From: Acidobacteriota bacterium
GTDB taxonomy: Bacteria; Acidobacteriota; Blastocatellia; Pyrinomonadales; Pyrinomonadaceae
DNA length: 38,762 nt
Reading direction: 5' to 3'
NCBI GenBank assembly: GCA_031362765.1
Contig: JANLTD010000877.1
Location: 1-38,762 of the forward strand
Shown here: one piece after another, positions 9,301 through 38,762 of the stretch
Layout: each line of letters begins with the position of its first letter
Numbering within the stretch: the stretch's first letter is position 1
Notes under the pieces: model-generated
The model's database searches: none
The model's input: only the letters and a program-made list of their open reading frames with translations
Told to the model about the DNA's origin: nothing
Program-made: the position numbers and the translations under genes

Positions 9301-9343
9301 TGTTATCAATAACTATGAAAAGCTAATACAAATTGTGAAATAA
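6314..9343 (+). CDS. Type III restriction enzyme Res-like subunit (DEAD/DEAH helicase + PD-(D/E)xK nuclease)
   Basis: Walker [21 protein letters not shown]-equivalent [10 protein letters not shown], helicase C motifs [18 protein letters not shown] and QEVGRGMR. C-terminal nuclease motif YNPDWAI...IYFVAETKG. Confidence 0.9.
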
Positions 9344-17761: not shown

Positions 17762-18676
17762 ATGAAAGTACTGAAGAGTTTTATTAACAGCCTGAAGATA
17801 GGCGACCCGCTTGCATTTAACCAACTTACTATTAAACCTATTTTTACCGGGACGGATTTCTCTCTGCCGCTGCTGACGCTTGAAGAGGCATTGGAGCAAA
17901 AGGCGCTGGAAATCACGGAAAAAAGCGAAGGCGGCAGCGTTCCCGAGCTTCTGGTCAAGAACCTGGGAAATATTGATGTGATTGTTCTTGAAGGCGAGGA
18001 ACTTCGCGGGGCAAAGCAGAACCGGATCGTGAACACGACCATCATAATCCCCGCCGGAGGCGAGATCATCCTGCCCGTTTCCTGCGTCGAACAGGGACGC
18101 TGGAGTTATGTCTCAAAGAGTTTTTCGTCGGGCGGAAATGTGCTTTATCCGAGCCTGAGAAAACTCAGCCACGATTCCGTGACAAAAAGCCTGCGCCGGG
18201 ACAGGAGTTATGAATCTGACCAAACAGGCATCTGGTCGGAACTGAAGCTCAAATCGGCGCGCATGTCGGTGAAGAGCGACACGGATGCCATGAGCGACAT
18301 TCTTGCGTGCCGCATTTCGCCCGAAGCAGAAACCGATCTGCTTGAAGAAATTCCGTATCAGGAAAAGCAAATCGGTTTTCTCGCCTTTATTAAAGGCAGA
18401 TTCGCCGGCGGCGATATTTTCGGGTCCGCCGATCTTTGCGAAAAACAAATGAGGAAACTGCTGCGCGGCTATTACCTGGACGCATTGGACAGCGACGTGA
18501 AATTTCCCGCGCTTGACGCGGCAGAAATTCTAAAGCAAATTCCGATCGCTCATCAGGAACAGTTTGCGGCAATCGGCAAAGGAACGGAAATGCGGTTTGA
18601 GGCAGATAAGATTCAGGGCGCCTGGAAAATGGTCGATGAAAACCTTTCGCACCTGACAGTGTTTCCAAAAGGCTAA
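17762..18676 (+). CDS. ARPP-1 / DUF6569-like protein
   Basis: SEGGSVPELLVKNLGNIDVIVLEGEELRGAKQNRIVNTTIIIPAGGEIILPVSCVEQGRWSY matches the conserved core I remember for DUF6569 (ARG- and rhodanese-phosphatase-associated protein 1). Confidence 0.6.
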   Translation: MKVLKSFINSLKIGDPLAFNQLTIKPIFTGTDFSLPLLTLEEALEQKALEITEKSEGGSVPELLVKNLGNIDVIVLEGEELRGAKQNRIVNTTIIIPAGGEIILPVSCVEQGRWSYVSKSFSSGGNVLYPSLRKLSHDSVTKSLRRDRSYESDQTGIWSELKLKSARMSVKSDTDAMSDILACRISPEAETDLLEEIPYQEKQIGFLAFIKGRFAGGDIFGSADLCEKQMRKLLRGYYLDALDSDVKFPALDAAEILKQIPIAHQEQFAAIGKGTEMRFEADKIQGAWKMVDENLSHLTVFPKG

Positions 18677-24662: not shown

Positions 24663-25485
24663 ATGGAAAAGTTAATTAAAAATGCTCAGCTTTTCAAACT
24701 TTCGCAATCAGACATTGATGCTGCCGAAAAGGAACGATTGCAATTCATTGAACCCTTTCCAAAAGAAAGCATTAAAATACTTAAAATAGAAGATTACGTT
24801 AAGGTAAAATCGAGGGACACTTTTACCTACTGGCTGGAACACAAACGAATTTTATTCGGTATCGGTGGGGGCAATGCTTCAAAGTTCGGCATTTATATGG
24901 CAAAAGACGGTAATTATTACACCGGATCCGGCACTAAAAAGAAAATTCATCAAGGCGATGAGTTAGAGCGGACATTTTCATCAATAAGAAAAGGAATTGT
25001 CGATACCTTCGATTTAACCGAACAAAACAGAATTTATGAAATAATCGACATTAATATTCCGGTTTGGAATCTGACATCAGGACACTTTCTTGTAATACCT
25101 TGTATTGTTTGAGTTTATTCAACCGACACAATCAATTTCAGCAATTTCTTGGCTTGTTTTAACTGAATAATCGGGTATAAGATTAAAGACGGTAGGTCAA
25201 ACTAACAATTAACTTGTTTTTTGCGCTAATTTGCCAAACCAAATTTCTCCAGTTTTCAATCTTGCTTATTATAAGCCTAATGTGCAGAATACTTTACAAG
25301 AAAGTGTCCTGACTTCAGGGTTTGGAATATGGTTCTGCAAAAGATACTTTCCAACTATTTCCCCCAGAAATTCATAAACATCAAAACGGTTCGATTCAGA
25401 ATTCATCGCCGGGACTTACAACATCACCGAAGCCAATCTCCACAACTGGCTCAAAAAAAACAGGCTCAAGCGAAAAGACTTCTAA
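24663..25485 (+). pseudogene. Small gene of unknown function, interrupted by a MITE (possibly also frameshifted)
   Basis: ORF 24663-25112 terminates inside the MITE. Removing 25071-25328 (MITE plus one TSD copy, 258 nt, in frame) joins ...DINIPVWN to MVLQKILSNYFPQKFINI... A different frame (25378-25485, ...FDSEFIAGTYNITEANLHNWLKKNRLKRKDF*) looks more protein-like near the end. The segment FTYWLEHKRILFGIGGGNASKFGIY loosely recalls N-terminal domains of McrB-like ATPases. Confidence 0.45.
25071..25318. mobile_element. MITE-1: 248-bp non-autonomous element with 25-bp TIRs and a 10-bp target-site duplication
   Basis: TIR-L is ctgacatcaggacactttcttgtaa (25071-25095). TIR-R is ttacaagaaagtgtcctgacttcag (25294-25318); 23/25 positions are complementary. 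Identical ggtttggaat flanks both ends (25061-25070 and 25319-25328). There is no ORF inside. Confidence 0.8.
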
Positions 25486-25509
25486 ATTCTATGATACATT
25501 TTTACCCTT

Positions 25510-27890
<2,381 letters not shown>

Positions 27891-28064
27891 TGGAGACTTT
27901 TAACCAACGAATAATATGAGTGTTTTTGATGAAATTGTAAAAATACAGGAAATTTCACAAAAAACCTTGCTTCATAAATCAATTCTGAACCGTTTTTTTG
28001 ATAAAGGCTTATCCTACTATTCCTTGATTTTGAGTTTTTTGAAGAAAATTGCACAAAAATAGAA

Positions 28065-29066
28065 TTATGTTTTCAAAGCGTCCCGGATTGATTTTGAATG
28101 TTTGTCTTTTTTAACCGCGAGTCTTTGGACATAAATTTGCGTCGTTTTAATATTGCTGTGTCCCAAAGCCTCTTGCGTTTCCGCCATTGATTCTGAATAT
28201 TCCGAAACAATTTTTGCAAAAGTGTGCCGTAGCCGGTGAATGTGAAAATGCTTGATGTCGGCTTCGATAGCGTAAGCTTCCATCCGGCGGGCAAATCCGT
28301 GAGACGTCAAGCCTTTCTTTTTAGTTGAGCCGGCTCCCTTATCGTGCCGCAGCCAAAGAGGTTCATCTTCGCCGAACATTTCCGTTCGACCGGTCGCTTC
28401 CAGATATTCAAACAAAGCGTTTTTGGTGGTTTCGTCATCCAGTTCAAAATTGAGGAAAAAACCGCCTTTGACCTTTGCCTTGATAAAAAATCTACCTTCT
28501 TTGATCTCGATACTATTGCCGCGAAGCCCGATGATCTCGGCGCGTCGCCGTCCGGTCGCGACATAAAATTGTAAGATCGCCAAATCGCGCAGATGCACCG
28601 GCTTTTTACCCATCGCATGACACGCAACAATTTCCAACAATTTTCCTAATTCTTCACGCGATAAAGCCTTGACGCTTTCCGATTGAAAGGGTTTCGCGGC
28701 TTTCGGCAGCGAAACTTTCGCCGGATTGATCGGAATAAGGCGCATCATTCCGACTTCATTTCGCAAATATTCAAAAAACTGGGAAAGTGCCGAAATCCGG
28801 TTATAAACGGTGCCATCCGCAAGTCCTTCGGTTTTCAGACTCCAGCGCCATTCTTCAACGTCGCCCGGCAAAACCCGTTCGGCGCTTTTGCCGCAAAAAT
28901 CAAAAAAATCAAAAACGGCTTTACTTTTATCATTGCGAATATCGTTGCTTCGTTTAAGAGATGAATTAACCGTTCGGGTCAACCAACTCTCAACGACCGC
29001 ATTAACATCAAGCGAAACTGTAAAATTTTCAGAGTTTGGAATTTGGAGTTCTTCAGAAGTTTTCAC
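28065..29066 (-). CDS. Tyrosine recombinase / phage-type integrase
   Basis: Catalytic residues lie in ATGRRRAEI, HIHRLRHTFA and LGHSNIKTTQIYV. N-terminal SAM-like core-binding domain. Confidence 0.9.
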   Translation of the reverse strand: MKTSEELQIPNSENFTVSLDVNAVVESWLTRTVNSSLKRSNDIRNDKSKAVFDFFDFCGKSAERVLPGDVEEWRWSLKTEGLADGTVYNRISALSQFFEYLRNEVGMMRLIPINPAKVSLPKAAKPFQSESVKALSREELGKLLEIVACHAMGKKPVHLRDLAILQFYVATGRRRAEIIGLRGNSIEIKEGRFFIKAKVKGGFFLNFELDDETTKNALFEYLEATGRTEMFGEDEPLWLRHDKGAGSTKKKGLTSHGFARRMEAYAIEADIKHFHIHRLRHTFAKIVSEYSESMAETQEALGHSNIKTTQIYVQRLAVKKDKHSKSIRDALKT

Positions 29067-29100
29067 AAAGTGATTTTAGATCAGTTTTACTCAAAAATCA

Positions 29101-29131
29101 AGGTTACACATTTGGCAGAAATGTGTAACCT
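29101..29131 (-). terminator. Perfect 13-bp inverted repeat (possible terminator of the CBASS cassette or an int operator)
   Basis: aggttacacattt-ggcag-aaatgtgtaacct. On the minus strand it is followed by cttgattttt. It lies 35 nt upstream of the integrase start. Confidence 0.4.
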
Positions 29132-29164
29132 TGGCATAAATTGATTGGGTCGTTACAAGTTTTT

Positions 29165-29240
29165 GTCAATTTACCCATTAGCAATCATCGTGGAACCATA
29201 AGCTGTCACTGAATAACCCATAAGTTGTCATTGTGAAAAT
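29165..29240. repeat. IR-L: cluster of three direct ~15-bp motifs (consensus ACCCATAAGCTGTCA) at 21-22-bp spacing
   Basis: Copies at 29173-29187 (acccattagcaatca), 29194-29208 (aaccataagctgtca) and 29216-29230 (acccataagttgtca). The reverse complement aligns with 34506-34610. Confidence 0.7.
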
Positions 29241-29330
29241 TTTCTTAATTTTCAATAATCATTTTACAGGGTTTCACTAAGGTCAGTAGTAATTTCTAAT
29301 AGCTGAAGAATGGCTGCTTGAAGATCTTCC

Positions 29331-30467
29331 TTATTTGTGCTCGATTTCAAATGCTTTTGTAAATCCTCCCGTTTTCCAATTTTGATCGTACAGTACTAAT
29401 GGCAATTGAGACTTCGGATTCCAGACACGACCTAATTCAATGCACGCTGAAACCGGCATAACCGGAAAAATATGAAGTTTGACATCCTCGCCATGAAATA
29501 GTTTTATTTCATCCAAAAGGCTTCGAATAACAGTTCTATATTCGCTTAAATGCTCCCTCTTGCGAATAAAATCATTGTTGGGATTATTGATTGTCAATTC
29601 CCAAATGGAACAGTCGTTGCCCAAAACTTTCTTTATTCTTTCATTGGAGATCGTCGCACTAAGCGAAAACTTGAGAGCAATGGTAGTGGTTTTGTGCTCG
29701 GGTTTATTGATAATGTAATTCACAATTGAAGGATCGTCTTCAAACCAAGCCCATGTTGATTCGGGTTCTTTTTTAATTTGGTAAACATCTGCTGGAAAAA
29801 TGTCTCCAAACAATGTGCCGAGTTTAATAAGCAGCGGTTGGGCAGCAAAACCGAAAATGGAATAGTGTTTAACGGGTCTTTCCGCTCGCATTTGAGTTAT
29901 CTTTCGCTCAAACAGTCTTTCTAAATTTCTAACTTCCGTATTCCAGAATTCTGGAGTATGGTCTTCATCCGCATTATTCTTGAGACTTAATTCTATGCAG
30001 CTTGCCTCAGCCGGGAAGCGAAATGGCACTAATCCTTCGTTAGCGCAATTTAAATTAAGAGGTGTATTATGTTTTCCAATATTCGACCCGTAAAGAACGA
30101 CATTGCTTCTTTTCTCATCTTTGATTTCCGTTAGAAGCCTAATTCTTTCCTCATGCTTGTGCTTCATACCCAGTAATCTCTCTTCTGGATGACCTGCTAT
30201 ATCTACTTTATCAATGAGCCGATGATGAATGTCGCAAAGCAACATTAAATTAGAAATTTCTTTAGCTAATAACGGAGAACGTATTATATCCCCGCGCGGA
30301 CCGCCCGGCTCGTCCGCAACGATATGTGCAACATATGCATAGTTGGATTTAACTTTAGTCAACAGATCTTCATAGAGAATTTCATTGCACCCGTCATACT
30401 CGCAACGCCCAGCAGATTGTGCCCATAAAATGAATAGTTTTCGTGGCGGAATTTTGGTTTTGCTCAT
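29331..30467 (-). CDS. cap5: CBASS effector, Cap5-like: HNH endonuclease fused to SAVED sensor domain
   Basis: N-terminal HNH (GRCEYDGC...YVAHIVADEPGGPRG...NLMLLCDIHHRLID), followed by a ~260-aa SAVED-sized domain ending HIFPVMPVSACIELGRVW. ATG at 30467 is preferred over the track's GTG at 30530. Confidence 0.8.
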   Translation of the reverse strand: MSKTKIPPRKLFILWAQSAGRCEYDGCNEILYEDLLTKVKSNYAYVAHIVADEPGGPRGDIIRSPLLAKEISNLMLLCDIHHRLIDKVDIAGHPEERLLGMKHKHEERIRLLTEIKDEKRSNVVLYGSNIGKHNTPLNLNCANEGLVPFRFPAEASCIELSLKNNADEDHTPEFWNTEVRNLERLFERKITQMRAERPVKHYSIFGFAAQPLLIKLGTLFGDIFPADVYQIKKEPESTWAWFEDDPSIVNYIINKPEHKTTTIALKFSLSATISNERIKKVLGNDCSIWELTINNPNNDFIRKREHLSEYRTVIRSLLDEIKLFHGEDVKLHIFPVMPVSACIELGRVWNPKSQLPLVLYDQNWKTGGFTKAFEIEHK

Positions 30468-30605
30468 AAGTATAAGTGTTTTAGGAATGATTCTAATTAA
30501 TATCCTTGTTTTGATTGTGTTCCATCTCACGCAATTTAGTTACCGAGGAACGCTCTTCGCTTCGCTTTCTTTGTCAATCAATTGATGATGAATAGTGCAA
30601 ATTAG

Positions 30606-30769
30606 CTGATACCAACGGATTTTGTGGTCAAATAAAGCTGTTGTTGAAAACAACAGGGTTAGCTTGACGACAATTTTGTGGTTGTAGCTTTGCACTTTGC
30701 AAAAAAGCTATGGTTTTCAAGGATTTTGTAGTTTGGTAAAAAGCCAACCACAAAATCCGTTGGTATCAG
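30606..30769. mobile_element. MITE-2: 164-bp element with perfect 23-bp TIRs and a 7-bp target-site duplication, inside the CBASS operon
   Basis: TIR ctgataccaacggattttgtggt (30606-30628) is the exact reverse complement of 30747-30769. It is flanked by aaattag at 30599-30605 and 30770-30776. Interior has extra ATTTTGTGGT-like copies and small hairpins. Confidence 0.8.
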
Positions 30770-30920
30770 AAATTAGCATTAGGTTAGTGATACCTGACTT
30801 TAATTTTTCTGAAAGAATTACTTCTTCGGAAGAATCTTAATTTTAGTCTGCTATTATGTAGGCTAAGTAAGACTGCTTAAAATGCGATCCAGTGAGATTG
30901 GCTTCATATAGCTTATAGTA

Positions 30921-31346
30921 CTACGGATGCTCCGCCCGACTACCGCACCATTCTCCAGTAGCTAACCAAATTTCATAATGAAGCAGCCAGAGTGATGTCC
31001 ACGGAATGATTGTGTTTGCTATCAGTTTCGAAGGCACCCATTCACCATACTTTGACCGGTAAAGGCAAAGAACTTTCCCTCCAAACACATGTGGAATCTT
31101 CTCGCCAGGTCGGGTCTTAAGAACTGGATCCAGAACACGGACCTCAGGTCGCTCGCCGAATCGGTATATGATTTGAACCGTATACACGATACTAAGGTGA
31201 GACGGATGAAGTTTCCCAATCCAGATCAACTTGGTGCCCTTGGTTAGGACAATTTTCGATTCTGGGAATTTACTTCTTAGCTCAACACTTTGTACCGCGA
31301 GTGAGAGCGAACGGTCTGAGGTTCGTCTCTGTTGATTAATCGCCAT
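30921..31346 (-). CDS. Stand-alone prokaryotic E2 (ubiquitin-conjugating-like) protein of E2-only CBASS
   Basis: IPHVFGGKVLCLYRSKYGEWVPSKLIANTIIPW parallels the UBC core HPN..G.ICL...W.P with a candidate catalytic Cys. 141 aa. The start overlaps the CD-NTase stop by 11 nt. Confidence 0.65.
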   Translation of the reverse strand: MAINQQRRTSDRSLSLAVQSVELRSKFPESKIVLTKGTKLIWIGKLHPSHLSIVYTVQIIYRFGERPEVRVLDPVLKTRPGEKIPHVFGGKVLCLYRSKYGEWVPSKLIANTIIPWTSLWLLHYEIWLATGEWCGSRAEHP

Positions 31347-32520
31347 ACCAAGTGTTTTTAACGACAGTCGTGCCGACTGTGGAATTGAGTAAGCCCGATT
31401 GTGATTGCATCTTCAATTCACCTTTTATCTGACTTTCGTCAACACCTTGACCATATCGTTCCATGCTTCTGGTAACAACCTCTGATCCGAACGATTCGGA
31501 TAAGTGTTCAGCAATGTTATTCAGTCCCTGTTGCTGCAGGAGCAACTCCATGTCGTATTTGACTACTGACAACCATTCAAAGAAACGCTCGGCTCGCTGA
31601 GGAAATTCGTTCCATTTGTCAGCAAAATTCTCTTTTGGATTGACGGGATTCGGTATCCACCAATCCTCGTCAATTTTGCTGATACTGCCTTCCATTCTGG
31701 AAATTATTCTGGTTAATGCCTGATATAAATCAACTTCATTTTGATAAGCCTGTGCTGCTAGCGTTGTGATTATTACAGAAATAGGTTTGTCATCTGGGTC
31801 TCCTTGATATCTAATGTCACGATGACGTTTTAATATCTGGACGGAGATCCGGAGTGGTGTTTTCACAGTGTCTTCTGCAATCTTTTCAACCTCTACGTTT
31901 CCAGCACGAGCCATCGAAGCTCGTTTTGTTTCAAATGCAACCGATTCTCTCTCTCGGAACCAGTATGCATAAGCTTTAGGGTTGCTGTGCTGCCACGCAC
32001 GAAGTTGTTTATCGGTCAACAAAATACTTGTCTCAATTGAGCGGTTGAACAGATTTCCTTCTTCATCTGGTAAAGCCGGTAGGACATCCATGTGAAAGCG
32101 ACCGTTATAATTCATCGCCCAACATCGGCGGCGCCTTTCCAATTTTGGTATTTCCTTCCCTTCTCGTTTCCGATGTTCGATATATCTTTTCAGTTGTTCA
32201 CCAGCTCGCTCGACCAATTCCTCCTGTGAGATATTCGTTTTTGACAGGTAACGTAGATAAACAAGGTCTACATCGTAACCGCAATCTGAGGAAATCGGCT
32301 GGATGGACGTTCCCAAACGCACCGACCCTTGTGGGTAAATCTCCGAGTTTGTTCGATAGAGATCTTCATTATCTTTTCGAATCCACGCTCCGAGATGGTT
32401 GTATTTCCTAACCATCTCCTCTCTTAAGGCGTTTGGTATGTCCAGGTCGCTTGCAATCAGCGTCAATAAATTACCAAGCTGCTGCTCCCGTGTCATACCG
32501 ATACTTATTCTGTCATCCAT
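31336..32520 (-). CDS. CD-NTase (cGAS/DncV-like, SMODS-type nucleotidyltransferase)
   Basis: Pol-beta NTase signature YPQGSVRLGTS ... YDVDLVY ... FHMDVLPA. SD gggagg lies 8 nt upstream of the ATG. The C-terminus is ...NTWYGD. Confidence 0.8.
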   Translation of the reverse strand: MDDRISIGMTREQQLGNLLTLIASDLDIPNALREEMVRKYNHLGAWIRKDNEDLYRTNSEIYPQGSVRLGTSIQPISSDCGYDVDLVYLRYLSKTNISQEELVERAGEQLKRYIEHRKREGKEIPKLERRRRCWAMNYNGRFHMDVLPALPDEEGNLFNRSIETSILLTDKQLRAWQHSNPKAYAYWFRERESVAFETKRASMARAGNVEVEKIAEDTVKTPLRISVQILKRHRDIRYQGDPDDKPISVIITTLAAQAYQNEVDLYQALTRIISRMEGSISKIDEDWWIPNPVNPKENFADKWNEFPQRAERFFEWLSVVKYDMELLLQQQGLNNIAEHLSESFGSEVVTRSMERYGQGVDESQIKGELKMQSQSGLLNSTVGTTVVKNTWYGD

Positions 32521-32550
32521 AATTTGTTACCTCCCGTTAAACTGTCCTAG

Positions 32551-32596
32551 TTAATTTTCAGAAAGCTCCCATTAAGCTTTCTCCAATCAAAATTAA
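32551..32596. promoter_or_regulatory. 46-bp nested palindrome immediately upstream of the CD-NTase gene
   Basis: ttaatttt-c-agaaagct-cccatta-agctttct-ccaatc-aaaattaa. The outer (8 bp) and inner (8 bp) arms are both perfect complements. It lies 31-76 nt upstream of the cdn ATG. Confidence 0.5.
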
Positions 32597-32652
32597 CCAC
32601 CATTTATCCTAAAGCACATTCAGTGAAGAGACTGAATAACTACTTAAAAAAA

Positions 32653-33234
32653 TTATTCCACCATTGTGTAGATAAATTGATCCCGACCAGCATCCGACCT
32701 GTCTTTCTCACGTTTTACCAACCCCAAGTTAAACAACTTCGTTAATCTTTCGTTAGCTGTCGTATGATTGATGTTTAGCTGATCTTTAATATGATTAGCC
32801 GTTAGAGGCGACCGAGCATTCGCAATCAACTCAAACGTTTCAATATATGTCTTGTGCAATTTGCCGATGATTCTGTATCCATCACCTTTTCTTTCCAGCA
32901 TTGCTAAACCTAAACCCTCGAGAGCACTGATTAAATTTTCTCGTGTGTAATCGGTCAGATGTTCGACGGCTAAAAACTTATCAGTGAATTCCCCATTACG
33001 CGATAAGACTCCTTTTCCAAACAACTCATTAGCAAATGAAAAATCGAAAACCTCAATGTCTTGAACGTCGATGATCACTAATTCGAAAGATCCCGCCTTC
33101 TCAAAAAGCTCTCTCAGCTCCTTTCTAAAGAGCTTAGCTTTCTCACGCGTCCAAAGTTGCGAATCGCCGTTTCTATATAAAATAAGTCTTTCAGCCATCC
33201 TGTTCAGTGTAAGTACTGAATGAGCTTTTGTCAA
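32653..33234 (-). CDS. STAS-like (DUF4325-type) domain fused to a C-terminal winged-helix DNA-binding domain
   Basis: REKAKLFRKELRELFEKAGSFELVIIDVQDIEVFDFSFANELFGKGV fits the DUF4325/STAS-like pattern. The C-terminus LTANHIKDQLNINHTTANERLTKLFNLGLVKRE is a wHTH. Start is TTG at 33234 (3 nt after the upstream stop) or ATG at 33198. Confidence 0.6.
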   Translation of the reverse strand: MTKAHSVLTLNRMAERLILYRNGDSQLWTREKAKLFRKELRELFEKAGSFELVIIDVQDIEVFDFSFANELFGKGVLSRNGEFTDKFLAVEHLTDYTRENLISALEGLGLAMLERKGDGYRIIGKLHKTYIETFELIANARSPLTANHIKDQLNINHTTANERLTKLFNLGLVKREKDRSDAGRDQFIYTMVE

Positions 33235-33237
33235 GAA

Positions 33238-34092
33238 TTAAATTTGAGGTAGCGATAAGACAACAGTGACTCCCGGCATGGGTACAGAATAAAAGGAAAG
33301 CGTTTGATTTTTGTCAGCCCGATAATAAAACGTGGCGGATCCGGATGTGATTCGTAGGGAACCCAAATACTTCTCGACAATCCTGATCAGGTGGTAAAAA
33401 CCTGTTCCACGGGTCGGATCATCATATTGCGATAATCCGAGCTCTGTCGCCAGCTTGATTGCTTCAAAATCGCCTTTAAAAGCAGGAGTTTTAGGGTTTT
33501 CTCTCAGAGTTTGTGCCAGACCTACTCCACAGTCCGAAATTCCTATCTCCATAAATGAGCCTCCTCCCGAATTGAAAAGCTGTAGTGAGAAAAAGCCACA
33601 AGCTTCCTTATTGTGATCAATCGTATTTTGGCACATTTCTGATAAAGCGATTCCCAAGTTAAACGCATCATTTTTCGGATACTTCATTTCACCCCTTAGA
33701 GTATTGATCGTCCTCTTAAGTATCGGGTCAAGATCATTATGGTTTTCAATTTTGGTTAATTCAATTAGTTTTGTATCTAAACCCTTCCAATCGTCATAAT
33801 CGACAAGACGAGTCGGAAGTATCTGAGGATCAAAACGAACTATCTCACATGCAACATCAAGAAAACCTGATTTGACGAAGTAGTTCCTCAAATTTGGATT
33901 TGCGACCTTTATTTTCAGCGTTCGTCCTTTTTTAGAAAGATCGAAGCACAAAGCTGTCAGCGGCACCAGACCGCCGGGGCTGATGAAAGTAAAATTACTA
34001 AGATCCAAAACTGCATCCGTTGTTTCTAATAATCTTTGGTTACGAACTATGTCCGTAAAGGTAGTCGAAATGAGCTTATTAATGTTTGACAT
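33238..34092 (-). CDS. STAS-like N-terminal domain fused to GHKL (RsbW/SpoIIAB-type) ATPase/kinase domain
   Basis: N-terminus VLDLSNFTFISPGGLVPLTALCFDLSKKGRTLKI (STAS-like). GHKL N box LSEMCQNTIDH, G1 ISDCGVGL, G2 DPTRGTGFYHL. SD ggag lies 8 nt upstream. Confidence 0.65.
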   Translation of the reverse strand: MSNINKLISTTFTDIVRNQRLLETTDAVLDLSNFTFISPGGLVPLTALCFDLSKKGRTLKIKVANPNLRNYFVKSGFLDVACEIVRFDPQILPTRLVDYDDWKGLDTKLIELTKIENHNDLDPILKRTINTLRGEMKYPKNDAFNLGIALSEMCQNTIDHNKEACGFFSLQLFNSGGGSFMEIGISDCGVGLAQTLRENPKTPAFKGDFEAIKLATELGLSQYDDPTRGTGFYHLIRIVEKYLGSLRITSGSATFYYRADKNQTLSFYSVPMPGVTVVLSLPQI

Positions 34093-34318
34093 TTATTAAC
34101 TCCGAACCAATAGAGAATAAATATAAGGACAAAAACTGATTCGAGGCAGATTTGGAATCCCAAAAAACACACTTATAATAAAATATTTTCCGGATAAGTT
34201 CTAGAGTTTTGTAATACAAATTTTCCAAGCTGAGATTAAAATGGCAAAAATTCACTAATCCTTCAGTGGCTACTATTGATGAAAATAACTTTTATTCACT
34301 GTCAGTGACAATTCTCAC

Positions 34319-34492
34319 TCAACGAGCAATTATTGCCTGGCTATGTTTATCCTTCTTAAATCTGATTTTATTGACATGTTGACGTGTTGTTTCAAGATTA
34401 CTATGACCAATTGCATCCTGTGTTTCCAGTAAACCATTACCTTCAGCGACTATTCGGTCAAATGTATGGCGAAATTGATGGATATGAAAATG
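34319..34492 (-). pseudogene. Tyrosine-recombinase remnant (C-terminal 57 codons only)
   Basis: The minus-strand translation is HFHIHQFRHTFDRIVAEGNGLLETQDAIGHSNLETTRQHVNKIRFKKDKHSQAIIAR*. It aligns with the C-terminus of the 28065-29066 integrase. An in-frame TGA lies directly upstream, and the catalytic Tyr position is His. Confidence 0.75.
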
Positions 34493-34505
34493 TCAGATTC
34501 TAGCC

Positions 34506-34610
34506 TGACACTTTAGGGTAAAATTCTATAACTAATGACAGCTTATGGGTAAATGGTGACTGTAAGCTATTGATTCTAGGTAAATGTTCGTGACAGGTTA
34601 TGGGTTAATT
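34506..34610. repeat. IR-R: cluster of TGACAGCTTATGGGT-type motifs, inverted relative to IR-L
   Basis: tgacactttagggta (34506-34520), tgacagcttatgggt (34536-34550, exact reverse complement of the consensus), tgacaggttatgggt (34591-34605), plus GGTAAATG repeats. It starts about 14 nt from the break point of the integrase remnant. Confidence 0.7.
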
Positions 34611-34862
34611 TACATTTCTAACTTAAGAACTTCTCTTTTGTAAATAACTTTCTATAAATTAGATAATCATAAGCTATTTTTTATCTCCTAAATTCCAAAC
34701 TCGGCCGTCCGTAATTAACAAAAAGTTTGTTTCAGGATTCGTCGATGGTTAGCGCATTTCTAATCCAAATAATTGTGTTATGAGCTAAACAGTTCAAAAG
34801 CGAAGGTGTCAGTGTCTTTATGTAAGTGAATTTTCATGAATGATGAATTCGGCAGCTGTTGC

Positions 34863-35822
34863 CTAAAATTTTCTGTTAAAGGGTGGAACGATAAATTCGA
34901 TCGGGATTTTTTTAAGCCGTGAGTATTGGCGAATCAATCTAATAGCTTCTCTCAATCGGGGCAGATATTCAGTTGCTGTTTCCTGGTGAAATCCGATTGA
35001 GACGTAAACATCTTTCCCGGGATTTTTTTTCAAGATGGAGGCGTTTTCCTGAAAGACCTTCAACATATCGTCGCCCGTCATATAGTCGGAGAGACAGCCA
35101 TTATTTGGCAGCTCAAGAATTTTCTGTCCCTTTGAGGTTTGATAAATGTAGGGTTGGCTGATTGAATTTGTCTTGGACCACAGTTTGCGGACAAATCCGT
35201 ACAAATTATATTGCTCCCATTGGGGTTTTAAAAATTCGGCCGGCGTTGCCGAGGAATCTAGTGAAAAACCTTCGGCAACCAAAGCTTCCAACATATTGTC
35301 GTTGGCTTGCCAACCGCCCGCCCGAAAACTTTTGGGACGATCAAATCCTTCTCTTTGGAGAATCTCGACGCTTCGTGCAATGATCTTTCGCAGTTCCTGA
35401 TTAGTGTAGGCGGTCAGCACCACTTCGTGACCGCAATCAAAACTACAACCAGCTAAATTGACTTCCCCCATAACCATCGACGGAAAGGTGCGAAACCTGA
35501 CACCCGATGATTCAACCAGGCTTCGCCAGGCATGAATATGCAGAGCTTGTTCATCCTTCGGCCGTAAAATTGATTTGATTGCTTTAGTTACCTGAGCGGC
35601 ATCTGCCCGGGGTTTGGTGTAATAGGCAGCATTAAGAAAATTCTGTAAGGGAATGTCAGCAAAGTCGCGTCGAAAATCCTGAATTGATTTCAGATTAGAT
35701 TCCTGCAAATCTTCGCCTTCCCAGTCAACACTGACCACAATTAGAACCTTACCCTGAGCATGTGTAACTGAATTCCCCCACAAAAGTACGAGCAGGACGA
35801 AGATAAGGATTCTGACATTCAT
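34863..35822 (-). CDS. Secreted protein, possibly polysaccharide deacetylase (CE4)-like
   Basis: Signal-like MNVRILIFVLLVLLWGNSVTHAQG from the ATG at 35822. VVSVDWEGEDL, ALHIHAW and FRAGGW loosely resemble NodB-type motifs. The functional call is weak. Confidence 0.4.
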   Translation of the reverse strand: MNVRILIFVLLVLLWGNSVTHAQGKVLIVVSVDWEGEDLQESNLKSIQDFRRDFADIPLQNFLNAAYYTKPRADAAQVTKAIKSILRPKDEQALHIHAWRSLVESSGVRFRTFPSMVMGEVNLAGCSFDCGHEVVLTAYTNQELRKIIARSVEILQREGFDRPKSFRAGGWQANDNMLEALVAEGFSLDSSATPAEFLKPQWEQYNLYGFVRKLWSKTNSISQPYIYQTSKGQKILELPNNGCLSDYMTGDDMLKVFQENASILKKNPGKDVYVSIGFHQETATEYLPRLREAIRLIRQYSRLKKIPIEFIVPPFNRKF

Positions 35823-35996
35823 AAAATTGTTTTGATTTTGACGATTAAATATCACGGAATTTCCGAAATATGGTTTCCCTCATTCTAACTCTTTTCCAAA
35901 AGAAATAACAAATATTTGGAAAAGCGGATAGGGCTAACGCATCTTAATTTTTCAAAAACACTCAACTGTGGCAATCTCTGTTTTCAGAAGGAGATT

Positions 35997-36536
35997 ATGA
36001 AAAACTTTCTGACCGACAGTGAAATGAAAAAGTTTCTCGCCGCCACCCGCCACAGCCGTCACGGAGTTCGCAATTTCTGTTTGGTGCTGACGGCTTACCG
36101 GCACGGACTGAGGGTTTCCGAACTCGTTGATATCCGCCTCAAAGATTTGGATTTGGAAACCGGCAGGTTATTTGTTCGCCGGCTCAAAGGAAGTCTCTCG
36201 ACTCATCAGCCGATTGAAGGCGACGAACTGCGGGCGATCAGAGCGTGGCTCAGGGAAAGAGAAAATTATCCGAACTCAAGTTCAAATTATTTATTCCTCA
36301 GCGAACGCGGTCCGATGACCCGCCAAGCGATCAACTATCTGGTCGAACAAAACGGCATTCGTGCGAAACTAAATTTCAAGGTCAATCCGCATATGCTGCG
36401 GCATTCAACCGGCTACTACTTAGCCAACAAAGGCTGCGACACCAGACTCATCCAGGATTACCTCGGACACAAAAACATCACGCATACCGTTCGTTACACG
36501 CGAACCGCGCACCGCTTTGAAGGACTTTGGCGGTAA
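35997..36536 (+). CDS. Small FimB/FimE-like tyrosine recombinase
   Basis: ATG at 35997 with a strong SD aaggag. Motifs: AYRHGLRVSEL, HMLRHSTGYYLANKGCDTRLIQDYLGHKNITHTVRYT. About 180 aa, as in fimbrial-switch invertases. Confidence 0.85.
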   Translation: MKNFLTDSEMKKFLAATRHSRHGVRNFCLVLTAYRHGLRVSELVDIRLKDLDLETGRLFVRRLKGSLSTHQPIEGDELRAIRAWLRERENYPNSSSNYLFLSERGPMTRQAINYLVEQNGIRAKLNFKVNPHMLRHSTGYYLANKGCDTRLIQDYLGHKNITHTVRYTRTAHRFEGLWR

Positions 36537-36560
36537 ATCCTATGGAACATTTTTCCCGTT

Positions 36561-37379
36561 GTCGGGTAAGAGAGTGACATTACTGCCGCTCCCTCCCCTC
36601 AGAACCCCTCGGGCCAGTTTTCCGGCAAGAGGCTCAAGCCTTTGAAACGCTCTGTTGCAGAACGCGCCAGCTATTACAACTGACTCAACAATACTCAACA
36701 GCTGTTCACAGCTCTTACGAGTTAAAGGTGCACAAGCTAATCAAAAGATTGCTTTCATTTGCTTTCCTTTACAAAGTGAATTCAACTCCTTTTCTCGTTG
36801 CCAAAGACCAAACCGAAGTCTGCCCATTTTCACGTCGGGTAATGTTTCAACCCGTATCCGCTTCATTACAAAACGGCATTCGCTTTTTCGGTTTTCCTTT
36901 ACCCGCCTTCCTATCGGCATTGTTTACACGTTGCTTTTCTTGAACACATTCAAGAAAAAAGACGGGTTTACCACGTTTCATTTCAATAACCTCAATCGGG
37001 AAGGTGCAGTCTATTCGCCGATGGTGCTCATATCCGTGTTGAAGAACCCACAAATCTTCAAACCTGACCATTTACCTTTTTGGTCTCAGCCTAACAGCTT
37101 CTTTGGCTGATTTTAAATGACGACGCTTTAACGACTGTTCATATACATTCACCATTCGATTGAATCCTAGTCTTAAACCGTTTGAAGCTAACAGTTGTTG
37201 CCATTTCTCACAAAATGACAACCGATTGAATAATCGTCAGTACATTGTCCCGAAAGCTTTGCACAGGTTCGTTACCAAACCTGCACATTTCGGTAGAATA
37301 CAAATGACGGAACATTTGGTTAAATCAAGTTAAATCAAAGAACAAGTTTAACAATTATTGAAACGACTTCGTGTCGCAC
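36561..37379 (-). mobile_element. ORF-less group II intron derivative (about 0.8 kb)
   Basis: Same 5' end GUGCGACACGAAGUCGUUUC (37379 downward). Domains I-III are nearly identical to 27330-27890, e.g. a 67-nt identical run at 36961-37027 = 27478-27544. Domain V is GAGCCUCUUGCCGGAAAACUGGCCCGAGGGGUUC (36602-36635). Domain VI has a GUAA loop and bulged A, ending ...CCCGAC at 36561. The IEP ORF is reduced to MKAIF*. Confidence 0.85.
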
Positions 37380-37459
37380 TGTGGGTTTTTAACCAATTAA
37401 GAGAAATAGTTGAAAGCGTTGGCTGTCAATTCAGCGAAGTCTACAATTTTGATCAGGAA

Positions 37460-38551
37460 ATGGACAAGAAACCCGAACCCGTCAATATTGACAAGCGGAA
37501 ACTGAAAAAATTTCAAGGTTGTCTTTTGGGCGGTGCGATTGGTGATGCATTAGGAGCGGCAATTGAATTCGATTCGATAGCGCAAATTCGTCAAAAATTC
37601 GGTCAAAGGGGATTGAGCGATTACGCGGCGGTTTACGGTCGTATCGGTGCAATTACCGATGACACGCAGATGTCGCTTTTCACTGCCGAAGGATTGCTTC
37701 GTTCTATAACCAGACAAAACCACAAAGGCATTTCTCATCCGCCTACTATCATTTATCACGCATATTTGCGCTGGCTCGAAACACAAGGCGAGAAAATCAG
37801 TAATGAACAAACCGAAACATTCATTTATGACGAAAAAAGCTGGTTGAACGAATTACCCGAACTAAATTTCCGTCGCGCGCCTGGAAACAGTTGTTTGTCA
37901 GCACTCGGAAGCGGGATTATGGGCACAATCTCAGATCCTATCAATAACAGCAAAGGCTGCGGAGGGGTAATTCGCGTTGCGCCAGTCGGATTAATCACAG
38001 ATGATGCTTTCGGATTAGGATGCGAGGCGGCGGCGATCACACACTGGCATCCAACCGGATACTTAAGCGCAGGTGTTCTGGCTTTGATCATCAAAAAGAT
38101 AATTAAAGGAAAAAGTTTGGTTGCAGCTGTAAATTCTGCTGTTTATGAAATTCTGCCTCAGCACGAAAATCATGAGGAAACATTTGCTGCCTGCGACAAA
38201 GCGATCAAATTGGCAAATGACGAAGCTGTTTTGCCCACACCCGAGATGGTTGAATCGCTCGGAGGCGGATGGATAGCGGAAGAAGCATTGGCAATTTCAA
38301 TTTACTGCTCACTAGTTTATAAAAACGATTTTCGGAAAGCGGTTCTTCTTGCCGTTAATCATTCGGGCGACAGTGATAGCACAGGAGCGATCACGGGAAA
38401 TATTTTAGGCGCGTTAAATGGTATCGATGCTTTACCAAGCTACTGGCTAGATAGGCTTGAGTTAAAATCAGCAATAGCTGAAATTGCCAAAGATATGTTA
38501 ATTAATTTTCGCACCGGCGGTAAATGGTGGAAGAAATATCCGGGAGTATAG
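37460..38551 (+). CDS. ADP-ribosylglycohydrolase (DraG/ARH family)
   Basis: N-terminal FQGCLLGGAIGDALGAAIEF, central ITDDTQMSLFTAEGL, C-terminal NHSGDSDSTGAITGNILGA. ATG at 37460 (agga SD) is preferred, because the track's TTG at 37358 lies inside the intron. Confidence 0.9.
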   Translation: MDKKPEPVNIDKRKLKKFQGCLLGGAIGDALGAAIEFDSIAQIRQKFGQRGLSDYAAVYGRIGAITDDTQMSLFTAEGLLRSITRQNHKGISHPPTIIYHAYLRWLETQGEKISNEQTETFIYDEKSWLNELPELNFRRAPGNSCLSALGSGIMGTISDPINNSKGCGGVIRVAPVGLITDDAFGLGCEAAAITHWHPTGYLSAGVLALIIKKIIKGKSLVAAVNSAVYEILPQHENHEETFAACDKAIKLANDEAVLPTPEMVESLGGGWIAEEALAISIYCSLVYKNDFRKAVLLAVNHSGDSDSTGAITGNILGALNGIDALPSYWLDRLELKSAIAEIAKDMLINFRTGGKWWKKYPGV

Positions 38552-38762
38552 CAATTAGGTGTAGAGAATTAAAACGAAGAGAAATTGATCGGTTCAGTTA
38601 AATTTTGGCTATTGCCTTTGAAAATATAAGAGTGTTACTTTAATTCTTTTTAGACTTTAAAGTTATTATAAATAACAATAAGAAGGGACGAGAATTACCT
38701 CAAGGTCTGGAAATTAAGCAACAAGCTTTAATATATTAAATTATAGTTATTGGTTCGTAATT

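What the first reader, a model, noticed from the sequence alone, without database searches (positions are those of the whole stretch)
32653..34092. Partner-switching-like pair (STAS::GHKL kinase + STAS/DUF4325::wHTH) directly upstream of and co-oriented with a CBASS operon
Gene 33238-34092 fuses a STAS-like N-terminus to an RsbW/SpoIIAB-type Bergerat ATP-binding fold (N, G1 and G2 boxes are readable). Three nt after its stop, 32653-33234 encodes a second STAS-like (DUF4325-type) domain fused to a winged-helix domain.

This is the logic of anti-sigma / anti-anti-sigma partner switching, but the output domain binds DNA instead of a sigma factor. The pair ends 132 nt upstream of the CD-NTase gene, on the same strand and inside the same IR-bracketed cassette.

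The CBASS transcriptional regulators I know of are CapW and CapH/CapP. I know of no GHKL/STAS module described as a CBASS regulator or as a named two-gene defence system. It is therefore either a new regulatory input to CBASS or an independent two-gene system sharing the cassette.
Basis: partly seen in the sequence, partly recalled or inferred. Interest (0 to 1): 0.8.

Follow-up and report, generated by a model that had tools for sequence, protein, structure and literature searches.

The report
CapK/CapS-type kinase–repressor switch controlling CBASS

Summary
Gene 33238-34092(-) encodes a STAS + GHKL kinase. The next gene encodes a STAS (DUF4325) + winged-helix protein. A type II (E2-only) CBASS operon (CD-NTase, E2, HNH-SAVED) follows 132 nt downstream.

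The pair is homologous to CapK/CapS (Chambers et al., bioRxiv Feb 2026; EMBO J June 2026, PMC13373217). There, a kinase activated by single-stranded DNA phosphorylates a conserved serine of a STAS-wHTH repressor and so de-represses the downstream immune operon. The catalytic Asn and the phospho-acceptor Ser are invariant here.

In 26 related loci with sequence past the kinase gene, the kinase is always followed by the repressor. Of 18 distinct informative loci, 15 then carry CBASS or ubiquitin-like (Bub/Bil) operons.

This copy belongs to a distant clade (about 25% identity) and differs from the published pair:
- The kinase lacks CapK's N-terminal HTH domain.
- The operator is not TTAA-based. 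An 18-bp palindrome, TWCAG-N8-CTGWA, occurs exactly twice in the window, over the -10 of a consensus promoter in the capK-capS gap and 16 nt after the capS stop. It is conserved, with co-varying half-sites, across phyla.

Corrections: capS most likely starts at ATG 33198 (181 aa), and the "IR bracket" is no better than chance.

Verdict: a variant of a known system, of modest interest.

The parts
33238..34092 (-). capK-like gene: 284-aa STAS + GHKL Ser/Thr kinase with no N-terminal HTH. It has a GGAG Shine-Dalgarno 7 nt upstream and an in-frame TAA directly before the ATG.
33778..34092 (-). Kinase STAS domain (about residues 1-105). F36 (33985-33987) aligns with VapK F54, which the paper equates with CapK W68, the ssDNA-stacking residue. 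S38 (33979-33981) sits at the canonical STAS phospho-position.
   Evidence: paper
33238..33741 (-). Kinase GHKL (Bergerat) domain, about residues 118-284. N box SEMCQNTIDHN is at 33610-33642 (N156 aligns with the catalytic N218 of E. roggenkampii CapK). G1 DCGVGL is at 33517-33534. G2 PTRGTG is at 33400-33417.
33206..33234 (-). Promoter P1 in the capK-capS gap: TTGACA (33229-33234), 17 nt, TACACT (33206-33211). The ATG of capS lies 7 nt after the -10, so the capS mRNA is probably leaderless. TTGACA-N17-TACA(C/G)T is conserved in most related loci, from several phyla.
33203..33220 (.). Operator O1: palindrome TTCAGtacttacaCTGAA overlapping the -10 of P1. Predicted CapS autoregulatory site.
32653..33198 (-). 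capS-like gene: 181-aa STAS (DUF4325) + wHTH repressor. The longest ORF from TTG 33234 gives 193 aa but is probably not used. The phospho-acceptor S54 codon is 33037-33039, inside the invariant D-x-S-F-A-N-E motif. The recognition-helix region INHTTANERLTKLFN is 32728-32772, and the wing SDAGRDQ lies within 32677-32703.
32619..32636 (.). Operator O2: palindrome TTCAGtctcttcaCTGAA, 16 nt after the capS stop and behind a T-run, with an embedded -10-like TTCACT. Predicted CapS site on the promoter of the CBASS operon.
32551..32596 (-). Imperfect inverted repeat (hairpin) in the predicted 5' UTR of the CD-NTase mRNA. Its role is unknown.
31336..32520 (-). CD-NTase (CBASS cyclase), first gene of the regulated operon.
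30921..31346 (-). E2-only Cap2-like protein (type II 'short' CBASS; called 'Type IIB (E2)' in the CapKS paper).
29331..30467 (-). HNH-SAVED (Cap5-type) effector. The probable start is ATG 30467; the longest ORF starts at 30530.

Best explanation
The pair is a CapK/CapS-type transcriptional switch for the downstream CBASS operon.

Proposed mechanism:
1. CapS (181 aa, STAS + winged helix) binds as a dimer to two copies of an 18-bp palindrome, TTCAG-N8-CTGAA. One copy overlaps the -10 of a consensus promoter in the 39-nt capK-capS gap, which gives autoregulation. The other lies 16 nt after the capS stop, over the promoter of the CD-NTase/E2/HNH-SAVED operon. Both promoters are held off.
2. On a stress signal, the kinase CapK (STAS + GHKL) phosphorylates the invariant Ser54 at the N-terminus of helix alpha-2 of the CapS STAS domain. 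By homology the signal is single-stranded DNA produced by DNA damage or phage infection.
3. Phosphorylation breaks the CapS dimer, releases it from DNA and raises CBASS expression.

Shown here:
- the domain architecture and folds;
- homology to CapK/CapS;
- invariance of the catalytic and acceptor residues;
- strict kinase-repressor-immune operon synteny across phyla;
- the twice-occurring palindrome, conserved with co-varying half-sites over both promoters.

Inferred from the published Enterobacter system:
- repression by CapS;
- phosphorylation at S54;
- dimer dissociation;
- ssDNA as the activating signal (the least certain step).
For: Homology to CapK/CapS:
- phmmer of the repressor against the PDB hits the CapS structures 9z72/9z73 and 9z71.
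- A profile of 56 homologues aligns full-length with E. roggenkampii CapS 9z71_A (5-177 against 8-178, E 2.5e-7), placing the invariant D-x-S-F on the paper's S54 (TDSSFPRE).
- BLASTP against E. roggenkampii CapK gives 25% identity over 222 aa (E 2e-9), with N156 on the catalytic N218. Against CapS it gives 26% over 102 aa (E 2e-9).
- The clade HMM scores CapK at 55.9 bits and VapK at 26.0 bits.

Folds:
- The kinase model resembles GHKL proteins, best SpoIIAB and RsbW.
- The repressor model is STAS plus a MarR/Lrs14-type wHTH, and S54 caps helix 53-70.

Synteny:
- In all 26 related loci with sequence past the kinase gene the kinase is followed by the repressor, after a short gap (about 20-40 nt).
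- Of 18 distinct informative loci, 5 continue with CBASS genes and 10 with ubiquitin-like/E2/JAB-ThiF (Bub/Bil) operons. The paper reports the same partners (231 Bub, 75 CBASS of 443).

Operator:
- TWCAG-N8-CTGWA occurs exactly twice in 38.7 kb, at 33203-33220 and 32619-32636. The chance expectation is 0.06, and 0 of 100 shuffles gave 2 or more matches.
- In the related loci it matches only at those two positions.
- The half-sites co-vary while staying palindromic: TTCAG/CTGAA, TACAG/CTGTA, TACAC/GTGTA.
- P1 is TTGACA-17-TACACT.

Layout and published mechanism:
- The gaps mirror the Enterobacter locus: capK-capS 39 nt against 38 nt, and capS to the next gene 132 nt against 131 nt.
- The paper shows experimentally repression by CapS, S54 phosphorylation by CapK, monomerisation and ssDNA activation.
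Against: - Nothing was tested experimentally for this locus.
- Identity to the characterised proteins is only about 25%.
- The kinase lacks the N-terminal HTH that is part of the published definition of CapK. The paper found that deleting it had no effect on the tested readouts.
- The published TTAA half-sites and the 'narrow' palindrome are absent. A TTAA-N10-TTAA near the CD-NTase start is not conserved in the 91%-identical locus L001.
- CapS residues the paper assigns to DNA contact differ here: N145 becomes A/T, K151 becomes T, G170 becomes R.
- The lysines K237/K239 of the predicted ssDNA groove are not conserved in the window protein (NSGGGS). ssDNA sensing therefore rests on a single aligned aromatic residue, F36.
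- A 164-bp MITE-like insertion separates E2 from the effector gene and could affect operon expression.
Confidence: 0.85

Rival explanations
1. Same kinase-repressor switch, but with a different input or a different mode of action. The HTH-less kinase would sense something other than ssDNA, or would relieve repression by stoichiometric sequestration of CapS (true partner switching) rather than by phosphorylation.
For: - K237/K239 of the predicted ssDNA groove are not conserved in the window protein.
- The clade is only about 25% identical to CapK.
- The kinase's own STAS domain keeps Ser/Thr at the canonical phospho-position (S38) where CapK has Asp. That would allow an extra regulatory layer.
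- SpoIIAB-type kinases both bind and phosphorylate their STAS partners (established knowledge; the fold match is).
Against: - All ATP-binding and catalytic motifs and the acceptor Ser are invariant across the clade, which argues for real phosphotransfer.
- An aromatic residue (F36) occupies the position of VapK F54, which the paper equates with CapK W68.
- The paper found ssDNA dependence or prediction for both CapK and the HTH-less VapK.
Confidence: 0.1
2. An independent two-gene defence or toxin-antitoxin-like system (VapKSC-like) that merely shares the cassette with CBASS.
For: - The kinase has the HTH-less architecture of VapK.
- Distant homologues sit in prophage accessory regions, followed by small ORFs.
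Against: - There is no VapC/PIN gene or any other effector gene in the pair.
- The partner has a wHTH rather than VapS's short C-terminal tail.
- The clade HMM scores CapK well above VapK (55.9 against 26.0 bits).
- The pair always lies directly upstream of, and co-oriented with, varied immune operons.
- The same operator lies over the downstream operon's promoter.
Confidence: 0.03
3. A housekeeping anti-sigma / anti-anti-sigma partner-switching module (SpoIIAB/SpoIIAA or RsbW/RsbV type) that controls a sigma factor.
For: The fold resembles SpoIIAB/RsbW and STAS antagonists.
Against: - No sigma factor gene forms part of the conserved kinase-repressor-operon unit. Only a Sigma70_r2 fragment about 4 kb downstream in L002 and faint Sigma70_r4 hits were seen.
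- No PP2C phosphatase gene was seen next to the pair in the window, or among the called genes of the ten related loci listed with Pfam calls.
- The kinase is itself fused to a STAS domain, and the partner carries a DNA-binding domain.
- The genomic contexts are defence islands.
Confidence: 0.02

Closest known systems
CapK/CapS of Enterobacter roggenkampii and Vibrio cholerae (Chambers, Rani, Min, Villa, Corbett; bioRxiv Feb 2026; EMBO J 2026, PMC13373217; CapS structures 9Z71-9Z73)
   Same: - STAS+GHKL kinase followed by a STAS+wHTH repressor, directly upstream of and co-oriented with an immune operon (CBASS type II-E2, Bub, Bil).
- Catalytic Asn in the N box and phospho-acceptor Ser at the N-terminus of STAS helix alpha-2 are both conserved.
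- One promoter with a palindromic operator lies in the 38-39-nt capK-capS gap, and a second lies in the roughly 130-nt gap before the operon.
- Sequence homology is detectable for both proteins.
   Different: - Only about 25% identity.
- The kinase has no N-terminal HTH (284 aa against 368 aa).
- The operator is TWCAG-N8-CTGWA at both promoters, with 13 bp between half-site centres. The published sites are TTAA-N1-TTAA (narrow) and TTAA-N10-TTAA (wide).
- Recognition-helix and wing residues differ: N145 becomes A/T, K151 becomes T, G170 becomes R.
- P1 is a consensus TTGACA/TACACT promoter whose -35 usually overlaps the kinase stop codon, and capS is probably leaderless.
- The related loci with a named source come from Acidobacteriota, Planctomycetota, Endomicrobiales and Eisenbacteria; the part of Dataset EV2 read here is mostly Proteobacteria, and a search of its text for six cyanobacterial names found none.
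VapKSC (VapK kinase, VapS antitoxin, VapC PIN toxin), same paper
   Same: The kinase is STAS+GHKL without an HTH. It has an aromatic residue at the F54 position and a STAS partner with a conserved Ser.
   Different: The partner here has a wHTH domain instead of a short C-terminal inhibitory helix. There is no VapC gene. The clade HMM scores VapK at only 26 bits against 56 bits for CapK.
SpoIIAB/SpoIIAA and RsbW/RsbV partner-switching modules
   Same: A GHKL Ser kinase phosphorylates the serine at the start of helix alpha-2 of a STAS protein. These are the best structural matches of the kinase domain.
   Different: - The output is a DNA-binding repressor, not release of a sigma factor.
- The kinase carries its own STAS domain.
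- No PP2C phosphatase or sigma gene is part of the module.
- The setting is a defence island.
CapW/BrxR and CapH+CapP regulators of CBASS/BREX
   Same: Repressors encoded next to immune operons that de-repress them on DNA damage or ssDNA (as summarised in the paper).
   Different: The proteins and chemistry are unrelated. CapW/BrxR is a WYL-domain repressor, and CapH+CapP is an HTH repressor cleaved by a metallopeptidase. Here the signal is transmitted by phosphorylation.

Membership tests
CapK/CapS (Chambers et al. 2026) | The kinase has a STAS domain followed by a GHKL kinase domain with a conserved N-box Asn (E. roggenkampii N218). | tested here: met
   - Pfam hits are sub-threshold.
- The AlphaFold2 model and Foldseek give GHKL neighbours, best SpoIIAB and RsbW.
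- BLASTP aligns N156 with N218.
- E152/N156/H160, D187xGxG191 and G229xG231 are invariant in 26 sequences that include CapK and VapK.
CapK/CapS (Chambers et al. 2026) | The kinase has an N-terminal HTH domain (architecture HTH-STAS-GHKL). | tested here: not met
   - An in-frame TAA lies directly upstream of the ATG, and a GGAG Shine-Dalgarno lies 7 nt upstream.
- The protein is 284 aa against 368 aa.
- All 11 close homologues are 283-292 aa, and most full-length hits of the library-wide search are about 280-310 aa.
- The paper found that deleting the HTH had no effect in its assays.
CapK/CapS (Chambers et al. 2026) | The kinase has the ssDNA-sensing groove residues W68, K237 and K239. | tested here: inconclusive
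   - F36 aligns with VapK F54, which the paper equates with W68. The column is F, L or W across the clade.
- The K237/K239 positions read NSGGGS in the window protein, though they are often K or R in relatives.
- No complex prediction with ssDNA was possible with these tools.
CapK/CapS (Chambers et al. 2026) | The partner is a STAS domain fused to a C-terminal wHTH domain of about 180 aa. | tested here: met
   - DUF4325 is above the Pfam cut-off, with TrmB/MarR hits.
- NCBIfam gives Lrs14/Sta1 wHTH hits.
- The family profile aligns full-length with CapS structure 9z71_A, E 2.5e-7.
- The AlphaFold2 model has pLDDT 94.6.
- Foldseek returns wHTH matches at 1.3-2 A rmsd.
CapK/CapS (Chambers et al. 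2026) | An absolutely conserved phospho-acceptor Ser on the second helix of the CapS STAS domain (E. roggenkampii S54). | tested here: met
   D52-x-S54-F55 is invariant in 56 homologues and aligns with TDSSFPRE of E. roggenkampii CapS. S54 is at the N-terminus of helix 53-70 in the model.
CapK/CapS (Chambers et al. 2026) | capK is immediately followed by capS and then by an immune operon on the same strand. | tested here: met
   - In the window, CBASS follows.
- In all 26 related loci with sequence past the kinase gene, it is followed by capS.
- 15 of 18 informative loci continue with CBASS or Ubl/E2/E1 operons.
CapK/CapS (Chambers et al. 2026) | Palindromic CapS operators over a promoter in the capK-capS gap and over the promoter of the downstream operon. 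| tested here: met
   TWCAG-N8-CTGWA is found at 33203-33220 and 32619-32636 only. It is conserved with co-varying half-sites in related loci. Binding by CapS itself was not tested.
CapK/CapS (Chambers et al. 2026) | Operator half-site TTAA, with narrow (N1) and wide (N10) spacings. | tested here: not met
   There is no TTAANTTAA in the capK-capS gap. A TTAA-N10-TTAA about 17 nt upstream of the CD-NTase ATG (about 32538-32555) is not conserved in the 91%-identical L001. The TTAA motifs at 32593-32596 and 32551-32554 belong to the stem of a UTR hairpin.
CapK/CapS (Chambers et al. 2026) | ssDNA-activated phosphorylation of CapS, dimer dissociation and DNA-damage-induced de-repression. | not testable with these tools
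   This needs biochemistry and reporter assays. It is known only for the Enterobacter proteins.
VapKSC | Three-gene operon: HTH-less kinase, STAS protein with a short C-terminal tail, VapC PIN toxin. | tested here: not met
   - The kinase architecture fits.
- The partner carries a wHTH.
- The next genes are CD-NTase, E2 and HNH-SAVED, not a PIN protein.
- VapK scores 26 bits against 56 bits for CapK on the clade HMM.
Anti-sigma / anti-anti-sigma partner switching (SpoIIAB-SpoIIAA, RsbW-RsbV) | The kinase sequesters a sigma factor; a cognate sigma gene and a PP2C phosphatase are in the module. | tested here: not met
   - No sigma or PP2C family was found among the window ORFs flanking the pair.
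- In the ten related loci listed with Pfam calls, no PP2C family was found; the only sigma-related hits are a Sigma70_r2 fragment about 4 kb downstream of the pair in L002 and faint Sigma70_r4 hits in L001 and L027.
- Only the folds match.

The most novel reading that the evidence does not exclude
The HTH-less clade could be a mechanistically distinct branch of CapKS rather than a trimmed copy. Its kinase keeps Ser/Thr (S38) at the canonical phospho-acceptor position of its own STAS domain, two residues after the aromatic residue that aligns with the ssDNA-stacking one. CapK and more distant relatives have Asp there. That pattern would fit cis-autophosphorylation that gates or resets the sensor, or an input other than ssDNA. 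Combined with a single 'wide' operator geometry at both promoters and a leaderless capS, it would give different switching dynamics from the published system.
Probability: 0.15. Interest if true: 0.5.

Novelty: new variant of a known kind. Interest (0 to 1): 0.3.

Why it matters
The finding does not open a new category, because the kinase-repressor logic for immune operons was published in 2026. What this analysis adds:
- CapKS-type control extends well beyond the mostly proteobacterial set in the part of the paper's dataset read here. A large HTH-less clade exists: 100 clusters at 50% identity score E<=1e-30 against its profile, and 4456 score E<=1e-3.
- This clade has a distinct operator, TWCAG-N8-CTGWA, which can be recognised by sequence alone. 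It could be used to annotate regulated immune operons and to predict promoters in poorly studied phyla.
- The co-varying half-sites give a natural data set for studying how CapS recognises DNA.

For annotating this window, it tells us the CBASS operon is probably silent until induced.

Tried and rejected
1. TTAA-based operators as in the paper. A TTAA-N10-TTAA lies near the CD-NTase start but is not conserved in L001, and the other TTAA motifs are part of a UTR hairpin stem. Rejected.
2. It folds as a hairpin (z -2.6). In L001 the fold is weaker (z -1.3), and in L024 the central stem carries two non-compensated mismatches. Inconclusive, and not the conserved palindrome.
3. The IR bracket 29182-29208 / 34536-34562. 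Its 13-nt exact core is expected about 1.6 times by chance (my estimate). Not used as evidence.
4. Source of the window. No exact match for the kinase in the contig index. Megablast of 25000-38762 against plasmids found only 45-bp group II intron matches, and tblastn of the kinase against plasmids found nothing. The organism remains unknown. A search of the paper's supplementary files for six cyanobacterial names found none in the CapKS dataset (EV2), while several occur in the VapKSC dataset (EV3).
5. PADLOC has no model for the pair, only weak hits to a DrmA model and PDC-M65A. NCBIfam has none for the kinase. phmmer of the kinase against the PDB found nothing.
6. The Foldseek PDB library ends in April 2026 and lacks 9Z71-9Z73, so the CapS structures could be matched only by sequence profile.
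7. The third homologous-protein search, which could have built a profile of HTH-type CapK for profile-profile comparison, was not spent. The pairwise and HMM scores were already sufficient.
Full report
**1. What is in the sequence**

Both ORFs exist on the minus strand as described.

The first gene, 33238-34092, encodes 284 aa.
- It has a GGAG ribosome-binding site 7 nt upstream of the ATG and an in-frame TAA directly before it, so no N-terminal extension is possible.
- Pfam gives only sub-threshold STAS (residues 25-80) and HATPase_c_2/HATPase_c (138-252) matches.
- An AlphaFold2 model built on 12 homologues is confident (pLDDT 86.3, pTM 0.88).
- Foldseek returns GHKL proteins (Hsp90, GyrB, histidine kinases). 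The best target-normalised TM-scores are to the anti-sigma kinases SpoIIAB (1l0o_A, 0.71; 1tid_C, 0.64) and RsbW (6m37_C, 0.73).
- The N box (SEMCQNTIDHN, with E152, N156 and H160), G1 (D187-C-G-V-G191) and G2 (R228-G-T-G231) are invariant or nearly so in an alignment of 26 sequences spanning the family.

The second gene encodes a DUF4325 STAS-like domain (24.5 bits against a cut-off of 23) followed by a TrmB/MarR/Lrs14-type winged helix.
- Its model has pLDDT 94.6, with a beta-alpha-beta STAS fold followed by a wHTH that superposes on archaeal and bacterial MarR/Lrs14/ArsR regulators at 1.3-2 A.

Downstream lie a CD-NTase (PADLOC cyclase, E 6e-120), an E2-only Cap2-like protein (E 1e-45) and an HNH-SAVED effector (E 1.5e-149). 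Together these form a type II 'short' CBASS.

- **capS start.** The TTG at 33234 that gives a 3-nt spacing lies inside a TTGACA -35 box. Wherever genes were called in related loci the homologue is 180-185 aa, and in the 91%-identical locus L001 it starts at the equivalent of ATG 33198. capS is therefore most likely 32653-33198 (181 aa), and the gap is 39 nt.
- **The 'IR bracket'.** It has a 13-nt exact core, which I estimate is expected about 1.6 times by chance in the region searched.

**2. It is a CapK/CapS-type pair**

phmmer of the second protein against PDB sequences hit three entries deposited in 2025-26: 9Z72/9Z73 and 9Z71. A full-text search traced these to Chambers et al. (EMBO J 2026, PMC13373217; preprint Feb 2026).

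That paper defines CapK (HTH-STAS-GHKL kinase) and CapS (STAS-wHTH repressor), encoded upstream of Bub, CBASS, Bil, Thoeris and other operons. It shows experimentally that:
- CapK, activated by ssDNA, phosphorylates CapS S54;
- phosphorylation turns the CapS dimer into monomers and de-represses transcription.

I took the E. roggenkampii protein sequences from the paper's source data.
- The window kinase aligns with CapK at 25% identity over 222 aa (E 2e-9), with N156 on the catalytic N218.
- The window repressor aligns with CapS at 26% over 102 aa (E 2e-9).
- A profile of 56 homologues of the window repressor aligns end to end with 9z71_A (E 2.5e-7). This puts the invariant D52-x-S54-F55 motif on CapS TDS-S54-FPRE. 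In the model, S54 caps the second STAS helix.
- The paper also describes an HTH-less relative, VapK, in the VapKSC toxin-antitoxin system. An HMM of the window clade scores CapK at 55.9 bits and VapK at 26.0 bits, so the window kinase is nearer to CapK.

**3. Related loci**

- The word-indexed search found 11 homologues of the kinase (283-292 aa) and more than 240 of the repressor.
- The exhaustive profile search found 4456 clusters at E<=1e-3 and 100 at E<=1e-30. Most full-length hits are about 280-310 aa, so they also lack the HTH.
- I collected 27 loci from metagenomes and from MAGs of Acidobacteriota, Planctomycetota, Endomicrobiales, Eisenbacteria and others.
- Wherever the contig continues past the kinase gene (26 loci), the repressor gene follows it, after a short gap of about 20-40 nt.
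- Among 18 distinct loci with enough downstream sequence:
  - 5 carry CBASS genes: three of type II-E2, including the window and its 91%- and 88%-identical relatives L001 and L024; one with AAA ATPase + SMODS + SAVED; and one cut after the same AAA ATPase.
  - 10 carry ubiquitin-like / Prok-E2 / JAB-ThiF (Bub or Bil) operons.
  - 3 carry other genes: DUF3892, or an unknown 250-aa protein followed by an integrase.
- This matches the partner spectrum the paper reports (231 Bub and 75 CBASS of 443). 'CBASS Type IIB (E2)' is the commonest CBASS type in its Dataset EV2.

**4. Cis elements**

Reading the two intergenic regions showed the same palindrome in both: TTCAGtacttacaCTGAA (33203-33220) and TTCAGtctcttcaCTGAA (32619-32636).
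- The pattern TWCAG-N8-CTGWA occurs exactly twice in the 38.7-kb window, at those two places. The chance expectation is 0.06, and no shuffle out of 100 gave two matches.
- In the related loci the strict pattern matches only directly after the capS stop, and in L001 and L006 also in the kinase-capS gap.

Anchored alignments show a conserved architecture at each site:
- **After the capS stop:** a T-run, then the palindrome 16-27 nt after the stop (44 nt in one locus). The half-sites change together: TTCAG/CTGAA, TACAG/CTGTA, TACAC/GTGTA. A -10-like TACACT or TTCACT is embedded in the palindrome.
- **In the kinase-capS gap:** TTGACA (often overlapping the kinase's TGA stop), 17 nt, TACA(C/G)T, then the ATG 7-8 nt later. 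The right half-site overlaps the -10, and the left half-site is more degenerate.

In the window, P1 is the best sigma-70-like match of the region, at 10 of 12. Its geometry implies a leaderless capS mRNA. This is an inference.

The layout parallels the Enterobacter locus: gaps of 39 and 132 nt here against 38 and 131 nt there. The half-site sequence and spacing differ from the published TTAA narrow and wide sites.

The CapS positions that the paper assigns to DNA contact also differ here: N145 becomes A/T, K151 becomes T, G170 becomes R. The residue before the conserved N149 (Ala versus Met/Val) tracks the second base of the half-site in most loci. This is suggestive, but it is confounded by phylogeny.

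**5. Mechanism and confidence**

The best-supported explanation is the CapKS mechanism.
1. A CapS dimer sits on O1 and O2.
2. Signal-activated kinase phosphorylates S54.
3. CapS is released, and capS and CBASS are induced.

My confidence differs by step:
- High that the pair regulates the downstream operon through CapS binding.
- Fairly high that S54 phosphorylation is the switch, because all catalytic and acceptor residues are invariant.
- Only moderate that ssDNA is the signal. F36 aligns with VapK F54, which the paper equates with CapK W68, but the two groove lysines are not conserved in this protein.

No terminator-like site was found between capS and the CD-NTase gene, so de-repression of P1 should also read through into CBASS.

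**6. Rivals**

- An independent two-gene defence system and a housekeeping sigma-factor switch are both poorly supported. The pair has no effector gene, no PP2C gene was seen near it in the window or in the related loci with Pfam calls, and no sigma factor gene belongs to the conserved unit; the contexts are defence islands.
- A variant with a different input or a different mode of action remains possible.

**7. Novelty**

This copy departs from the published definition in three ways: there is no HTH on the kinase, the operator is different, and identity is about 25%. At 43.5 bits, a BLAST search of a large database with E. roggenkampii CapK would probably not reach it. This is an inference. 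A search of the paper's CapKS dataset for six cyanobacterial names found none, and the part read is dominated by Proteobacteria.

I therefore class it as a new variant of a known kind, of modest interest.

Noticed in passing
window 30606-30769 (insertion spans about 30605-30913): A 164-bp element with perfect 23-bp terminal inverted repeats and a very stable fold (z -8.3) sits between the E2 and HNH-SAVED genes. It is part of a roughly 280-bp stretch that is absent from the 91%-identical cassette L001. It looks like a MITE and may affect expression of the CBASS effector. There is no other copy in the window.
   Followed up: partly
window 25510-27907 (-) and 36561-37396 (-): Two group II introns lie on the minus strand, one with a 562-aa RT/maturase ORF and one without an ORF. 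They are 83-96% identical over domains I-IV and share about 70 nt of 5' flank. Between them is an 8.7-kb segment holding an integrase, CBASS, capKS, a 330-aa secreted protein and a small integrase.
   Followed up: partly
window about 34319-34492 (-), and 34506-34614: A 57-codon C-terminal fragment of a tyrosine recombinase (HFHIHQFRHTF...GHSNLETT...) lies about 230 nt upstream of capK. It is paralogous to the intact integrase at 28065-29066. This suggests the cassette moved by integrase-mediated recombination.
   Followed up: partly
window 33979-33981 (kinase S38): The kinase's own STAS domain keeps Ser/Thr at the canonical STAS phospho-acceptor position (F-I-S-P-G-G) in all 18 closer clade members aligned. 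More distant relatives have Asp there, as does E. roggenkampii CapK (D70) by my reading of its sequence, and VapK has Arg. This is a phosphomimetic-like substitution pattern and hints at possible autophosphorylation.
   Followed up: partly
window 32551-32596 (-): The predicted 5' UTR of the CD-NTase mRNA folds into a long imperfect hairpin (z -2.6). L001 has a hairpin with a different outer stem (z -1.3). L024 has two uncompensated mismatches in the central stem. Whether it is functional is undecided.
   Followed up: partly
window 1-25000 (+): The rest of the window is a defence island:
- a type III-like R-M pair (N6_N4 methylase 2750-4729; ResIII/RE_endonuc 6314-9343);
- a Fic protein (4869-6275);
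- a 1168-aa UvrD/PD-(D/E)XK helicase-nuclease with an N-terminal M78 peptidase domain (10800-14306);
- ARPP-1 (17762-18676);
- a trypsin-like protease (18868-20448);
- an EEP nuclease (23333-24577).
   Followed up: no
L022 (Streptococcus phage phiGBSVK-D, PP758857.1 40970-42159); L023 (Gordonia phage Phishy, MW862986.1 28280-29419): Distant homologues of the kinase (about 23-26% identity) occur in accessory regions of temperate phages, near the integrase or lysis genes. Each is followed by a small (75-99 aa) hypothetical protein. They may be VapK-like or other two-gene modules.
   Followed up: partly
window 33238-34092 (protein residues 23-262): There is a weak PADLOC hit (E 1.3e-3) to the N-terminal 250 positions of a 1750-position DrmA (DISARM) model. 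This suggests that some DrmA proteins carry a related STAS-GHKL module.
   Followed up: no
L001 1-9218; L027 1-1594: As in about 20% of the published CapKS loci, some HTH-less loci have restriction-like genes upstream of the kinase. L001 has a PLD-SNF2 helicase, an MmeI-type methylase and a T4 endonuclease IV-like gene. L027 has a DNA methylase and HNH genes.
   Followed up: no
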